64,000 nucleotides of DNA from Escherichia coli (GTDB lineage Bacteria; Pseudomonadota; Gammaproteobacteria; Enterobacterales; Enterobacteriaceae): NCBI RefSeq assembly GCF_051903065.1, contig NZ_CP178438.1; one strand, written 5' to 3'. Made by a program: the position numbers and the translations under genes. The notes beneath the pieces were generated by a model. That model saw only the letters and a list, made by a program, of their open reading frames with translations. It did not search any database and had not been told where the DNA came from. Shown piece by piece: positions 2,947-56,314 of the stretch (positions within the stretch are counted from its first letter, which is position 1; the number at the start of each line of letters is the position of its first letter).

Positions 2947-4905
<1,959 letters not shown>

Positions 4906-5122
4906 GCTTTTGTTCTCCTTGTAGGATGTTAATAATATGTGGCATAAGCGTTAAATGTAGGGGTATTGGCAGTTTTGTTTAGTATTTGGGCGACAGATCA
5001 CGCAAAAGTAGAATTGTGCAAATAAACGGCAGGGTAATTTTTGAAGGTCAGCAACAAAAGTTGATTAATTCTTTGAGGAACATGCAGTTATGCATGCTGT
5101 TGAAAAAGAGGAAGATACTGAC

Positions 5123-5138
5123 TAACTCTAAAGTGGTA
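5123..5138 (+). promoter_or_regulatory. candidate NarL/NarP 7-2-7 heptamer pair in nrfA promoter
   Basis: taactct-aa-agtggta (right arm = TACCACT on the other strand); centre lies 33 bp upstream of the FNR site centre, matching a -74.5/-41.5 arrangement. Confidence 0.45.
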
Positions 5139-5156
5139 TTTTACATGCACTTACAA

Positions 5157-5170
5157 TTGATTAAAGACAA
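5157..5170 (+). promoter_or_regulatory. candidate FNR site of nrfA promoter
   Basis: TTGATtaaaGACAA resembles TTGAT-N4-ATCAA; about 130 bp upstream of nrfA ATG. Confidence 0.45.
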
Positions 5171-5255
5171 CATTCACAGTGTGGTTATTTGTTACACATA
5201 GGGGCGAGCAATGTCATGACAGTGTAGGTGCGGTTACTGTCGTGAAAAACAATAA

Positions 5256-6734
<1,479 letters not shown>

Positions 6735-51337: not shown

Positions 51338-51354
51338 CTTAAGGTTCACTTAAT
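51338..51354 (+). promoter_or_regulatory. PmrA (BasR) box upstream of pmrR
   Basis: CTTAAG-gttca-CTTAAT direct repeat, 45 bp upstream of pmrR ATG. Confidence 0.65.
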
Positions 51355-51398
51355 CTCTGACGCGCATACTCTCCTCCAGGTTAACGGAGGAGAGTGCA

Positions 51399-51488
51399 AT
51401 GAAAAACCGTGTTTATGAAAGTTTAACTACCGTGTTCAGCGTGCTGGTGGTCAGCAGCTTTCTTTATATCTGGTTTGCCACGTACTGA
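51399..51488 (+). CDS. pmrR: small membrane protein PmrR (29 aa)
   Basis: Hand-translated ATG 51399 to TGA 51488 gives MKNRVYESLTTVFSVLVVSSFLYIWFATY; GGAGG Shine-Dalgarno; PmrA box upstream; below the ORF-track size cut-off. Confidence 0.75.
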   Translation: MKNRVYESLTTVFSVLVVSSFLYIWFATY

Positions 51489-52564: not shown

Positions 52565-53233
52565 TTAGTTTTCCTCATTCGCGACCAGCATATAGCCAAA
52601 GCCGCGCACGGTGCGGATACGGGCTTTGCCCACTTTGTCGCGCAGATTGTGGATATGCACTTCCAGGGTGTTGGTCGAGGGTTCATTGTCCCAGTTATAG
52701 ATGTCGTTGTAGAGAATTTCCCGATGCACCGGACTGCCTGCTTTGAGCATTAACCGTGACAGCAGAGCATATTCTTTGGGCGTCAGAATCAACTCTTCAC
52801 CGCCCATCCATACCTGACGCCGACCCATGTTCAGCGTCAGATTGCCAACAATCAGCTCACTTTCGCCCTGATTATTATGGCGTCGTAGCAGGGCGCGGAT
52901 ACGGGCATGTAACTCTTCCAGCGCAAAAGGCTTCACCAGATAGTCGTCGGCACCGACATCCAGCCCGGCGATTTTGTCGGTCAGCGTATCGCGAGCGGTG
53001 AGGATCAGTACCGGCAGGGTATATTTTTTCTGCCGGATACGGGCGAGAAAATGCAGTCCATCTTCGTCGGGTAACCCTAAATCCAGTACCACCAGGCTGT
53101 AATGACCTGCCTCAAGGCTTTGTTCCGCCATCCGCGCGGTTGTCACGCCATCGCACGCGTAGCCTTCGGTTTGCGCCGCCAGAATCAGTCCCTGCAATAA
53201 CAGCGTATCGTCTTCAACAATCAGAATTTTCAT
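52565..53233 (-). CDS. basR: response regulator BasR (PmrA)
   Basis: 222 aa; [16 protein letters not shown] receiver domain and winged-helix C-terminus. Confidence 0.95.
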
Positions 53234-54873
53234 TCACTCACTCTCCTGCAAGTTTGCAGAATATCATCCGCAGCCTGGTAATACTTCGTCTCAACGCCAG
53301 TTAATCCCAATAGCGTGGAGAATAAATTGTCTTGTGAATAGTGTTGCGTTTGCGCCTGTTTTTGCAGGCAGTTCTGGTCAACCTGATACCGTTTTTGATA
53401 ATCCTCCGACAGCCACAGCAGCATCGGCACCTGTTTTTGGCTATCCGGGGCGATGGCATAAGGCAGACCGTGCAGATAGATGCCATTTTCACCTAACGAT
53501 TCACCGTGGTCAGAAAGATAAACCAGGCTGGTGGTAAATTTATCCTGATGTTCTTTCAGCAGATTAATCGCTTTATCAACAATATAGTCGACGTAAACCA
53601 GCGTGTTGTCGTAAGTGTTCACCAGTTGCTCTTTGGTACAGGTCTGGATCTCATTGGTGTCGCAGGTTGGGGTAAATTTCCTGAACTGCGGCGGATAGCG
53701 GTTGTAATAGGTCGGACCGTGGCTGCCGATGGTGTGTAAGACAATCACGCCATCACCCTGCAGGTTATTGATGTACTCTTCCAGCCCGTGGAACAGCACT
53801 TCGTCATAGCATTCGCCGTTGATGCACTGACCAGGCAGATTCAGCGCGGTGACGTTCTGGTGAGGCACGCGGTCGCAGGCACCTTTACAGCCCCCATCGT
53901 TGTCATTCCACAGCACGTTGATGCCCGCTCGCTGAATGATATCCAGCACGCCTTCCTGGTGCTGTGCCAGCTCTTCTTTGTAATGCTCACGCGGCATATC
54001 CGAGAACATGCACGGTACTGAAACTGCCGTTGCCGTGCCGCAAGATGCGGTATTAGGGAAATAGACCACGTTATCTTTCGCCAACCGCGGGTTAGTTTCA
54101 CGCGGGTAGCCGTTGAGGGAGAAGTTCTCCGCCCGCGAGGTTTCGCCGACAATCAGGATGGTCAAATTTTTACGTTTTTCGTTCTGCATTAACGGGTTGC
54201 GGTGCGCGTCTTCACCAATTCGCACCAGCGGCAGATTTGCCAGTCGCTGATGGGAGTACCATGACCAGCTGGCAACAATGCTGTTAGAGGGGCTTAAGGA
54301 CTTCACCAGCTCTTTGTTGTTGCGGAACAACGAGGCGTAGTCTTTATAAAATAGTGCGGCGACCAGCAAAATCAGCAGTACAGAAACCAGAATATTGGCT
54401 CCACGGAAAAGAACACTGCGCAGACGCGAGGTGGCAGGTTTGATTTTTATCCAGCAGGCAATCAGCGCAGCAAGCACGCCGCTGAATCCCAGCGTTAATA
54501 ACATTTGCGGTGTCATCAACGCATAACTTTCTGCCGGAGTGGTATCAATAATATTGGCAATCATCGAGCGGTCGATGACGATGCCGTAAGTCATTATGAA
54601 ATATTGTGCAGCCGCGCCAACCAGAATAAACAGGCAGGCCAGCGGTCGATTAAGCCATAAGAAAGAGCTTAGTGTCAGGACAATATTAATCACGCTGAAG
54701 GCGACGACCGGCATCGACAAGAAAACCAGTACGTTATGCAGCGAGTCCAGCGGCAGCGCCTGCAACACCTGTTTAAAAAAGGCAATATTCAGGCAGATAG
54801 AGATATAAAAAGCGGCCAACAATAGCCAGGCGAGTAAATTCAAAGAGGGTCTTTTTAGTAGGCGCTTCAACAT
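53230..54873 (-). CDS. eptA: lipid A phosphoethanolamine transferase EptA (PmrC)
   Basis: 547 aa from ATG 54873 ([18 protein letters not shown]); N-terminal TM helices and sulfatase-like domain; overlaps basR start. Confidence 0.93.
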
Positions 54874-54919
54874 CACGGTGTTTCCATCGAACAAAGTGCG
54901 CATATGCTCGCAAAGCAAA

Positions 54920-54936
54920 ATTAAGCCAACCTTAAG
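54920..54936 (-). promoter_or_regulatory. PmrA (BasR) box of eptA promoter
   Basis: Minus strand CTTAAG-gttgg-CTTAAT, 47-63 bp upstream of eptA ATG. Confidence 0.65.
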
Positions 54937-54950
54937 TTCTTAAGGTTGGC
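54925..54950 (-). terminator. hairpin terminator downstream of adiC (overlaps PmrA box)
   Basis: Palindrome gccaaccttaag-tt-cttaaggttggc followed on the minus strand by UUAAUUUUGCUUU. Confidence 0.55.
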
Positions 54951-54976
54951 TTTTATCTTTGCTGGATTAAGGGGAA

Positions 54977-56314
54977 TTAATCTTTGCTTATTGGTGCATC
55001 TAAGGGATACGGGTTTTTATGCAGCCGGTTGTAATTCAGCGCATACATGGCGGTGATGACCATCAGGGTGACAAATGACCACATAACCTCTTTCGCCCCG
55101 GACCCCACCACGGCCCAGATGCAGTAGAGGAAGGCAATGGTAGTAACTGCCAGATATGCCGGGCGTGCTTTACCAAAGTGACCGTGTCCGAGCAGCAGTA
55201 ACGCCGCACAGGTGTAAAGATATGGCACCAGTGTAAAGATGACCGACACGGAAGAAACCAGACCGAATTCTTTGGTCGCGTTTGGTGAAATGCTGCTGAG
55301 CTGGAAGATGGTCATCAAAATACCGACGATAATCAGCCCCGCCACTGGCGTACCCGCTTTATTTACACGGGCAAAAATCGGTGGGAACAGTCCGTCATCG
55401 GCAGCGGCTTTCGCCGTTTGACCCGCCAGCAATGTCCAGCCGCCCAGTGAACCTAAGCAACCCGCAGCTGCGCAGAAGGAAACAATAGCCCCGGCGGTGT
55501 CACCCAACGCCATCCGTGCGGCATCACCGAATGGCGAGGCAGAAACGCGCAGTGCGGCATTAGGGATCATCCCCATAATCGCGGTGGTGGAGAGCACATA
55601 GCAAACGGCGGCAATCAATACCCCACCAATGGTGGCTATAGGGACGTTGCGTTTCGGGTTTTTCACCACACCTGCGGCAACGGAGGCACTTTCCACACCG
55701 ATGAACGACCACAGCGTAACGTTAAGGGTACTTTGAATTGCACCGAAGGTGCCCAGGCCGCTGACGTTCCATGCCGCCATATAGGTTTCACCACGAAACC
55801 AGAACCAGCCAAATACGGCAATCCCGACGATGGGGATCAGCGCCAGCACGGTGGCAACGGCCTGCACACGGGTGATCATTTTCGGACCGACAATGTTCAG
55901 CAGGACGAAGATCCACAGCACCACGACGCAGGTGATGGTTAATACCAATGGATCTTTCAGAATCGGGAAGAAGTAACTTAAATATCCTACGCCAATGACC
56001 ACCATGGCGATATTGCCGATCCAGCAGGCCAGCCAGTAGAGGACGTTGGTTTGATAACCGAGAAACGGGCCAAAGCAGCGGCGGGCGTAAGCGTAAGAAC
56101 CACCAGGACTTGGGTCGAGGAACGACATTTTGGCGTATACCATCGAGAGCCCCAGCGCACCGATAATCGTCACCAACCATCCATAAATGGCAATCCCGCC
56201 AGTGGAGGCCAGGTTTGCAGGTAACAGAAAAACACCTGACCCCATAATATTCCCCGACACCATCAGGGTGACGGGGATTAAGCCCACTTTGTGAGCATCA
56301 GCATCCGAAGACAT
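54977..56314 (-). CDS. adiC: arginine:agmatine antiporter AdiC
   Basis: 445 aa APC-family transporter; [29 protein letters not shown]. Confidence 0.95.

What the first reader, a model, noticed from the sequence alone, without database searches (positions are those of the whole stretch)
54920..54950. eptA PmrA box embedded in the adiC terminator palindrome
The 17 bp PmrA box CTTAAGgttggCTTAAT (minus strand) overlaps a 12 bp arm palindrome gccaaccttaag-tt-cttaaggttggc that also looks like the adiC terminator. One DNA segment would then act both as an RNA terminator for adiC and as an activator site for eptA-basRS.
Basis: seen in the sequence. Interest (0 to 1): 0.4.

Follow-up and report, generated by a model that had tools for sequence, protein, structure and literature searches.

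The report
adiC terminator hairpin sharing eptA's PmrA box
In E. coli, one 30-bp palindrome between adiC and eptA forms the hairpin where adiC messages end, and its downstream half is the PmrA/BasR activator site of the eptA-basRS promoter: a real but fairly ordinary case of two signals packed into a 103-bp gap.

Summary
Window 54923-54952 is a perfect inverted repeat with 14-nt arms, longer than the 12 nt reported, and it is the only one of this size in the 64 kb. The consensus PmrA box CTTAAGGTTGGCTTAAT (minus strand, 54920-54936) covers the whole 3' arm.

- **Promoter side:** the box lies 10 nt upstream of a conserved -10 (GAGCAT, 54904-54909), the same spacing as at the pmrR and arnB promoters. 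The box core is invariant in 51 enterobacterial species.
- **Terminator side:** published Term-seq data for E. coli place a strong adiC 3' end at MG1655 4335633, which is window 54916. This is 7 nt after the stem, 4 nt past the box and 6 nt before the -10.
- **Comparative support:** among 27 adiC-eptA loci, all 11 with no other hairpin in the spacer keep a strong palindrome. All 7 weak palindromes lie behind an inserted GC-rich hairpin.

Open points:
- The U-tract is interrupted (UUAAUUUUG), so the 3' end could come from exonuclease trimming of Rho-terminated transcripts rather than intrinsic termination.
- A 'TTAA' in the left arm is invariant even where no stable hairpin can form, which hints at an extra DNA-level role.

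Each component is already known. I did not find the overlap described in the literature I could search. Interest is modest.

The parts
54977..56314 (-). adiC coding sequence (arginine:agmatine antiporter); stop codon TAA at 54977-54979
   Evidence: ORF list; 100% tblastn identity to MG1655 AdiC; annotation
54916..54976 (-). adiC 3' UTR, 61 nt, from the stop codon to the mapped RNA 3' end
   Evidence: Term-seq dominant 3' end at MG1655 4335633 = window 54916
54953..54960 (-). A-rich tract (AAAGATAA) just 5' of the stem; on the plus strand it supplies the U-tract TTTTATCTTT
   Evidence: Sequence; terminator-like sites reported on both strands
54939..54952 (-). 5' (left) arm of the hairpin, AAGCCAACCTTAAG. 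It contains a 'TTAA' (54940-54943) that is invariant in 51 species.
54923..54936 (-). 3' (right) arm of the hairpin, CTTAAGGTTGGCTT; it lies entirely inside the PmrA box
54920..54936 (-). PmrA/BasR box CTTAAG-GTTGG-CTTAAT: half-site 1 at 54931-54936, spacer at 54926-54930, half-site 2 at 54920-54925
   Evidence: Consensus match, 2 found against 0.07 expected; TTAA, GTT and CTTAA invariant in 51 species
54912..54924 (-). U-rich tail UUAAUUUUGCUUU. It doubles as half-site 2 plus the spacer between the box and the -10.
   Evidence: Sequence; 3' end peak 54916-54924
54916..54916 (-). Dominant in vivo RNA 3' end of adiC (...GGCUUAAUUUUG-3')
   Evidence: PMC10687069 Supplementary Data 2; coordinate mapping
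54904..54909 (-). Inferred eptA -10 hexamer GAGCAT, 10 nt downstream of the box. The predicted transcription start near 54897 is inferred, not measured.
   Evidence: Hexamer positions 2, 5 and 6 invariant in 51 species; same 10-nt spacing at pmrR (CATACT) and arnB (TAAAAT)
53230..54873 (-). eptA coding sequence (phosphoethanolamine transferase), first gene of eptA-basRS

Best explanation
The 30-bp palindrome is read twice.

**As RNA.** At the end of the adiC message it folds into a 13-bp hairpin with a 4-nt loop, about -18 kcal/mol. An A-rich tract precedes it and UUAAUUUUG follows. adiC transcripts end 7 nt after the stem. This is most likely (about 55%) a moderately efficient intrinsic terminator. 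At the least, it is the hairpin that defines and protects the adiC 3' end.

**As DNA.** The 3' arm plus the next 3 nt form the PmrA (BasR) box. I infer that a phosphorylated BasR dimer binds there head-to-tail in place of a -35 element and activates sigma-70 RNA polymerase at the -10 located 10 nt downstream, driving eptA-basRS.

**Consequences.** The U-tract of the terminator is the promoter's half-site 2 and spacer. adiC transcription therefore stops inside the eptA core promoter, about 18 nt upstream of the predicted eptA start.

**Likely origin (inferred).** The box is the older part. The left arm is an inverted copy of half-site 1 plus spacer. It gave adiC a hairpin in a gap too short for a separate one.

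**What is shown and what is inferred.**
- Shown: the sequence anatomy, the conservation, the in vivo 3' end, and PmrA dependence of the orthologous promoter (from the literature).
- Inferred: intrinsic rather than Rho-dependent termination, the exact eptA start site, and the evolutionary order.
For: **Anatomy**
- The palindrome is perfect and unique in the window. Its hairpin is stable.
- A terminator-like site is called on both strands.

**In vivo 3' end**
- The Term-seq 3' end maps to window 54916, 7 nt after the stem, with signal 1 and p = 0 in three replicates.

**PmrA promoter**
- The consensus box lies 10 nt upstream of the -10, as at pmrR and arnB.
- The box core and -10 positions A2, A5 and T6 are invariant in 51 species.
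- Literature: a PmrA box at the -35 position of pmrCAB, a PmrA-activated promoter upstream of pmrCAB, BasSR induction of eptA in E. coli, and an EMSA with an eptA-promoter motif.

**Comparative evidence for the hairpin**
- Of 27 adiC-eptA loci, the 11 with no other hairpin in the spacer all keep a strong palindrome (-13.5 to -20 kcal/mol).
- All 7 weak palindromes (weaker than -9 kcal/mol) lie downstream of an inserted GC-rich hairpin of -21 to -33 kcal/mol. My Fisher test on that table gives p of about 0.013.
- C. amalonaticus and E. albertii keep the left arm although the flanking spacer is unalignable.
- Two stem pairs show changes on both sides: three Citrobacter loci with an identical segment (L013, L053, L015) have A-T at pair 17-30, and L025 has GACAACC/GGTTGTC.

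**Within E. coli**
- The 42 nt covering the palindrome and tail are identical in 5382 of 5411 genomes. The adjacent upstream 42 nt match the window in only 414 of 5400.
Against: - The U-tract is interrupted by AA. A d'Aubenton-Carafa-type score, using a formula recalled from memory, is below threshold on the adiC strand (-9.5) and above it on the opposite strand (+12.9).
- Only 5 of the 13 stem pairs are G-C.
- The 3' end comes from one dataset, taken in LB, where adiC is probably poorly expressed (my assumption; no expression data were checked). Adams et al. 2021 and SMRT-Cappable-seq supplements list nothing for adiC.
- Hairpin-adjacent 3' ends can be exonuclease-trimmed products of Rho-dependent termination further downstream (PMC6061677).
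- Covariation is weak: 2 of 13 pairs, with few independent events.
- Salmonella changed the right arm (GG to CA or TG) without compensation, so the stem is not universally maintained.
- I did not retrieve a direct BasR footprint at E. coli eptA.
Confidence: 0.7

Rival explanations
1. The hairpin is a protective 3' stem-loop, not a terminator. RNA polymerase coming from adiC reads through the eptA promoter and is stopped by Rho somewhere inside eptA. 3'-to-5' exonucleases then trim the RNA back to the hairpin.
For: - Dar and Sorek showed that Rho-dependent transcripts have precise steady-state ends immediately after stable stem-loops that lack good U-tracts.
- The U-tract here is interrupted and the classical score is sub-threshold.
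- Salmonella and many Citrobacter carry hairpins in this spacer that resemble REP (repetitive extragenic palindrome) elements and are not followed by a U-run (the U-run judged by eye from the printed sequences).
Against: - The hairpin has an A-rich tract upstream, and 6 of the 8 nt after the 12-bp G-C-closed core stem are U. Rho-type ends typically lack both features.
- The end lies 7 nt after the stem, as at intrinsic terminators.
- The pattern scan calls it terminator-like.
Confidence: 0.25
2. The left arm is mainly a DNA-level element of the eptA promoter: a third, inverted PmrA-like half-site, or the site of another regulator such as QseB/PreA. On this reading the hairpin is a by-product, or a clade-specific add-on.
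For: - 'TTAA' at alignment columns 18-21 (window 54940-54943) is invariant in all 51 aligned species. These include Klebsiella, Kluyvera and Raoultella, where adiC is not upstream and most local hairpins are only -1.5 to -7 kcal/mol.
- Salmonella keeps AACATTAAG, the inverted form of CTTAATGTT, although its outer stem is lost.
- PreA (QseB) activates pmrCAB independently of PmrA (PMC2653508).
Against: - The pmrR and arnB PmrA boxes have no such inverted element.
- OmpR/PhoB-family dimers bind direct repeats head-to-tail. An 8-bp inverted spacing fits no described PmrA mode.
- This reading does not explain why the outer stem decays only where another hairpin exists, nor the mapped 3' end.
- Erwiniaceae loci lack the element.
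Confidence: 0.3
3. The palindrome is a chance by-product, arising because CTTAAG is its own reverse complement.
For: The self-complementary hexamer supplies 6 of the 14 arm positions for free once a second CTTAAG lies nearby (sequence).
Against: - Eight further complementary positions are present. No other perfect inverted repeat with arms of at least 12 nt occurs in the 64 kb, against a random expectation of 0.03.
- The left arm is conserved across genera while its flanks are not.
- An RNA 3' end maps to it.
Confidence: 0.03

Closest known systems
PmrA (BasR) box promoters: pbgP/arnB, ugd, pmrCAB in Salmonella, E. coli and Klebsiella
   Same: Two YTTAAK hexamers in direct repeat with a 5-bp spacer replace the -35, 10 nt upstream of the -10. 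The site is orthologous to the Salmonella pmrCAB PmrA-activated promoter.
   Different: The box here is also the 3' arm of an RNA hairpin belonging to the upstream gene. It is preceded by an inverted copy of half-site 1 that arnB and pmrR lack.
Intrinsic (Rho-independent) terminators with A-tract/U-tract symmetry, i.e. bidirectional-type terminators
   Same: A stable stem-loop with a 4-nt loop, an A-rich tract upstream and a U-rich tract downstream. The in vivo 3' end lies 7 nt after the stem.
   Different: - The U-tract on the adiC strand is interrupted (UUAAUUUUG).
- The stem is A/U-rich, with 5 G-C pairs of 13.
- The flanking genes are tandem, not convergent.
- No plus-strand 3' end is listed at 43356xx in the stored supplement text.
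Protective 3' stem-loops of Rho-dependent transcripts (Dar and Sorek 2018)
   Same: A precise steady-state 3' end lies just after a stable hairpin with an imperfect U-tract.
   Different: An A-tract is present and the tail is fairly U-rich. Rho dependence was not tested.
REP (repetitive extragenic palindrome) elements
   Same: A palindrome at the 3' end of a gene. Salmonella and Citrobacter carry REP-like GC-rich hairpins in the same spacer.
   Different: The E. coli palindrome is single-copy (median 1 place per genome), A/T-rich and built from PmrA half-site sequence. It is not a REP.

Membership tests
PmrA/BasR-activated sigma-70 promoter (PmrA box) | Two YTTAAK hexamers in direct repeat separated by 5 bp | tested here: met
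   CTTAAGGTTGGCTTAAT at 54920-54936 (minus strand); 2 matches in 64 kb against 0.07 expected
PmrA/BasR-activated sigma-70 promoter (PmrA box) | Box replaces the -35 and lies about 10 nt upstream of a -10 hexamer | tested here: met
   GAGCAT lies 10 nt downstream, the same spacing as at pmrR and arnB. -10 positions 2, 5 and 6 are invariant in 51 species. The transcription start was not measured.
PmrA/BasR-activated sigma-70 promoter (PmrA box) | Conserved upstream of orthologous eptA/pmrC genes | tested here: met
   TTAA, GTT and CTTAA are invariant in 51 species
PmrA/BasR-activated sigma-70 promoter (PmrA box) | PmrA~P binds the site and transcription depends on PmrA | not testable with these tools
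   Literature only: PMC10570014, PMC3531487, PMC8151780, PMC12774351
Intrinsic terminator | Stable stem-loop in the nascent RNA downstream of the stop codon | tested here: met
   13-bp stem, 4-nt loop, about -18 to -19 kcal/mol, 25 nt after the adiC stop
Intrinsic terminator | Uninterrupted U-rich tract of 7-8 nt right after the stem | tested here: inconclusive
   UUAAUUUUG has 6 U in the first 8 nt, interrupted by AA. The recalled d-score is -9.5 on the minus strand and +12.9 on the plus strand. The pattern scan accepts both strands.
Intrinsic terminator | In vivo RNA 3' end 7-9 nt after the stem | tested here: met
   Term-seq dominant end at window 54916, 7 nt after the stem
Intrinsic terminator | Termination independent of Rho, shown in vitro or by bicyclomycin insensitivity | not testable with these tools
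   Dar and Sorek's supplementary table of Rho-dependence scores is not held
Bidirectional terminator | RNA 3' ends on both strands flanking the same hairpin | tested here: not met
   Only the minus-strand end is listed at 43356xx in the stored supplement text, which was cut when stored. Plus-strand transcription there may simply be absent in LB.
REP element | Multi-copy GC-rich extragenic palindrome | tested here: not met
   Median of one place per E. coli genome; A/T-rich stem
Rfam RNA families | Match at gathering score | tested here: not met
   Best matches score 21-23 bits against gathering scores of 50-80

The most novel reading that the evidence does not exclude
The overlap may be regulatory rather than merely compact.

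- **Coupling of adiC to eptA.** BasR~P bound to the box could act as a roadblock that sharpens adiC termination. Heavy adiC transcription under acid, anaerobic conditions could displace BasR or occlude the eptA -10. Alternatively, it could read through the leaky terminator and feed the eptA-basRS autoregulatory loop without PmrA. Any of these would link arginine-dependent acid resistance to lipid A modification.
- **A third operator element.** The invariant 'TTAA' 8 bp upstream of the box, conserved in 51 species whatever the upstream gene, may be an unrecognised part of the pmrC/eptA promoter, such as the site for QseB/PreA or for a second PmrA contact.
Probability: 0.15. Interest if true: 0.55.

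Novelty: new member of a known kind. Interest (0 to 1): 0.3.

Why it matters
- **Annotation.** It is a clean, checkable example of one short DNA segment carrying two signals, an RNA 3'-end hairpin and an activator site. Such cases matter for annotating and engineering compact intergenic regions.
- **Practical consequence.** Any mutation in the right arm, for example one selected in colistin-resistance studies of the eptA promoter, also alters the adiC 3' end. adiC read-through becomes a possible PmrA-independent input to eptA-basRS.
- **Limits.** Both components are individually known, and terminator-promoter overlaps in tandem gene pairs are a familiar kind of arrangement. The finding does not open a new question by itself.

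Tried and rejected
- **Literature.** Searches for a description of the overlap found nothing relevant: eptA + adiC + terminator; 'PmrA box' + eptA; the literal box sequence; eptA/pmrC promoter phrases. Wösten and Groisman 1999, Marchal 2004 and the SEnd-seq paper are not held.
- **Other 3'-end datasets.** Supplements of Adams 2021 and SMRT-Cappable-seq have no adiC or eptA entry. Supplements of Dar and Sorek 2018 and of PMC9023263 are not held.
- **Rfam.** Nothing near a gathering score.
- **Covariation test.** Only 2 of 13 pairs change on both sides, because the right arm is frozen by the PmrA box. This cannot decide between RNA-level and DNA-level selection.
- **Chance and REP explanations.** Both rejected.
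- **Classical terminator score.** Sub-threshold on the adiC strand. The formula was recalled from memory, so it counts only as a caution.
- **Population comparison.** It shows the palindrome is invariant in E. coli but cannot separate the left arm from the right. The 'upstream control' figure is inflated because the window carries a minority allele at one common SNP.

Full report
**Identity and anatomy.** The window is E. coli chromosome. A 501-bp query around the site matches 5412 of 5426 complete genomes, annotated adiC and eptA. The region is colinear with MG1655, where MG1655 coordinate = window coordinate + 4,280,717; there is one substitution in the 131 nt around the site.

All relevant genes are on the minus strand: adiA, adiY, adiC (54977-56314), eptA (ATG at 54873), basR and basS. 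The adiC-eptA gap is 103 bp. On the minus strand it reads: TAA-ttccccttaatccagcAAAGATAA-AAGCCAACCTTAAG-AA-CTTAAGGTTGGCTT-AATTTTGCTTTGC-GAGCAT-atgcgcactttgttcgatggaaacaccgtg-ATG.

**Observation check.** The inverted repeat is perfect, with 14-nt arms (54939-54952 and 54923-54936) and 2 nt between them. It is the only perfect inverted repeat with arms of at least 12 nt and a loop of at most 10 nt in the 64 kb. Random Markov-1 sequences gave 0.03 per window.

The PmrA consensus YTTAAK-N5-YTTAAK matches at 54920-54936 on the minus strand. There are two matches in the window against 0.07 expected; the other is upstream of pmrR. The box covers the entire 3' arm plus 3 nt.

**Promoter side.** At the two other E. 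coli PmrA boxes I read, a -10 hexamer lies exactly 10 nt after the box: CATACT at pmrR (window 51338-51354) and TAAAAT at arnB (MG1655). At eptA the hexamer in that position is GAGCAT (54904-54909).

I fetched 60 eptA loci from one-genome-per-species bacterial assemblies and aligned 51 of them without gaps (alignment A1). The invariant columns are TTAA and GTT of half-site 1 and the spacer, CTTAA of half-site 2, and positions 2, 5 and 6 of the -10 hexamer. This is the signature of a functional PmrA-dependent promoter.

The literature agrees:
- The box overlaps the -35 in pbgP, ugd and pmrCAB (PMC10570014).
- PmrA-P autoregulates from a promoter upstream of pmrCAB (PMC3531487).
- BasSR induces eptA in E. 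coli (PMC8151780).
- An eptA-promoter motif is shifted by PmrA in an EMSA (PMC12774351).

**Terminator side.** As RNA the palindrome forms a 13-bp stem with a 4-nt loop of about -18 kcal/mol. The 101-nt context folds far better than shuffles, with z = -5.1. The pattern scan calls a terminator-like site on both strands.

The decisive evidence is experimental. Bar et al. [quoted passage not shown] Their table lists a minus-strand 3' end with peak 4335633-4335641 and dominant position 4335633, with signal 1, p = 0 in all replicates and class 'Primary adiC'. The sheet was assigned from its header position and column layout.

Position 4335633 is window 54916, so the RNA ends ...GGCUUAAUUUUG. That is 7 nt after the stem, 4 nt past the PmrA box and 6 nt before the -10. 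adiC transcripts therefore end inside the eptA core promoter, about 18 nt upstream of the predicted eptA start.

**Is it intrinsic termination?** Three features argue for it: the A-rich tract before the stem, the U-rich tail, and the 7-nt distance. Three argue against: the U-tract is interrupted by AA, only 5 stem pairs are G-C, and a classical score (formula recalled from memory) is -9.5 on the adiC strand against +12.9 on the opposite strand.

Dar and Sorek showed that Rho-dependent transcripts also end precisely after stable hairpins, through exonuclease trimming (PMC6061677). That rival stays open. I put about 55% on intrinsic termination, and about 70% on the broader claim that the hairpin defines the adiC 3' end while half of it is the PmrA box.

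**Comparative evidence.** adiC lies upstream of eptA only in Escherichia, Salmonella and most Citrobacter. Among 27 such loci:
- 11 have a short spacer (98-116 bp) with no other hairpin: Escherichia species, the C. amalonaticus group, and C. werkmanii and C. youngae (L024, L010). All 11 keep a strong palindrome, -13.5 to -20 kcal/mol.
- 16 carry an inserted hairpin in a spacer of 120-147 bp. Most of these hairpins are GC-rich and REP-like; L021's is followed by a short U-run. Nine of the 16 palindromes are still strong.
- The other 7 are weak: Salmonella at -1.6 and -1.8, four loci of the C. freundii group (C. braakii, C. portucalensis and two unnamed Citrobacter) at about -3.5, and L014 at -8.

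All losses occur where a substitute hairpin exists. My Fisher test on the table gives p of about 0.013, but there are only about 3-4 independent loss events, so this is suggestive only.

The left arm is retained in C. amalonaticus and E. albertii although the adjoining spacer is unalignable. Formal covariation is weak, with 2 of 13 pairs changing on both sides, because the right arm is frozen by the box. Within E. coli, the 42 nt spanning the palindrome and tail are identical in 5382 of 5411 genomes.

**An unexplained layer.** The 'TTAA' inside the left arm (A1 columns 18-21, window 54940-54943) is invariant in all 51 aligned species. These include Klebsiella, Kluyvera and Raoultella. There the upstream gene is a co-directional 301-307-aa ORF with the same conserved N-terminus throughout; it looks like ybhK/yvcK to me, but I ran no family search on it.

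In most of those species the local hairpin is only -1.5 to -7 kcal/mol. In three Kluyvera loci the upstream ORF even ends at the TAA inside half-site 1. An RNA hairpin cannot explain that conservation.

The arnB and pmrR boxes lack the element, and the Erwiniaceae loci lack it as well. It may be an extra DNA-level operator element of the eptA/pmrC promoter. PreA/QseB is known to activate pmrCAB independently of PmrA (PMC2653508). I could not test this.

**Comparison with known systems and novelty.** The box passes every membership test for a PmrA promoter that sequence can address. The hairpin meets three of five intrinsic-terminator criteria; the U-tract is inconclusive and Rho independence is untestable here. 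It is not a REP element, being single-copy, and it matches no Rfam family.

Both components are already on record: the box in the PmrA literature and the 3' end in a supplementary table. None of my literature searches found a paper discussing the overlap. I rate it a new member of a known kind (overlapping terminator and promoter signals between tandem genes), with modest interest.

**Verdict.** What remains open is the termination mechanism (intrinsic or Rho plus trimming), whether the two functions interact, and the meaning of the invariant third TTAA.

Noticed in passing
window 54940-54943 (alignment A1 columns 18-21): A third 'TTAA', 8 bp upstream of the first PmrA half-site, is invariant in all 51 aligned eptA promoters. 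This holds even where adiC is not the upstream gene and no stable hairpin forms. The pmrR and arnB PmrA boxes lack it, and so do the Erwiniaceae eptA loci.
   Followed up: partly
window 51338-51403 (+ strand): A second perfect PmrA box (CTTAAGGTTCACTTAAT, 51338-51354) lies upstream of pmrR, with CATACT 10 nt downstream. It is followed by a perfect 9-bp hairpin, CTCTCCTCC/GGAGGAGAG (51369-51377 and 51386-51394), whose 3' arm looks like the pmrR ribosome-binding site. The Term-seq table lists a plus-strand 3' end at MG1655 4332117 (window 51400, inside the pmrR start codon). This may be the proP mRNA end or a short leader RNA, and it is another promoter/3'-end overlap in the same regulon.
   Followed up: partly
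L007, L008 (Salmonella) and L011-L019, L052-L056 (Citrobacter), 50-70 nt after the adiC stop: REP-like GC-rich hairpins (-17 to -33 kcal/mol) are inserted between adiC and the eptA promoter. They lengthen the spacer from about 100 bp to 131-147 bp. All weak palindromes occur downstream of such an insertion.
   Followed up: partly
L033, L034, L050 (Kluyvera), about 3938-3942: The upstream co-directional ORF (ybhK-like, by my recognition only) runs through the left-arm position and ends with the TAA that lies inside PmrA half-site 1. The eptA promoter is therefore embedded in the end of the upstream gene, with no terminator between them.
   Followed up: no
window 57389 and 56244 (MG1655 4338106 and 4336961, minus strand): The same Term-seq table lists a strong 3' end (signal 1) in the adiA-adiY intergenic region and a weaker internal 3' end near the 5' end of adiC.
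   Followed up: no
window 54923-54965 (+ strand): Read on the plus strand, the same hairpin is followed by a better U-tract (UUUUAUCUUU) than on the adiC strand. It would therefore be the stronger terminator for any antisense transcription coming out of eptA. No plus-strand 3' end is listed there in the LB Term-seq data.
   Followed up: partly
L047 (Citrobacter koseri) 4001-5642: The eptA match spans 1642 nt, which is not a multiple of 3, and no ATG lies at the expected start. Half-site 1 is ATTAAG and adiC is not upstream. eptA may be a pseudogene here, or the locus may be rearranged.
   Followed up: no
window 54957 (MG1655 4335674): The window carries G where MG1655 and most E. coli genomes appear to carry C, in the spacer just upstream of the hairpin. 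Only 414 of 5400 genomes match the window exactly over 54953-54994.
   Followed up: partly
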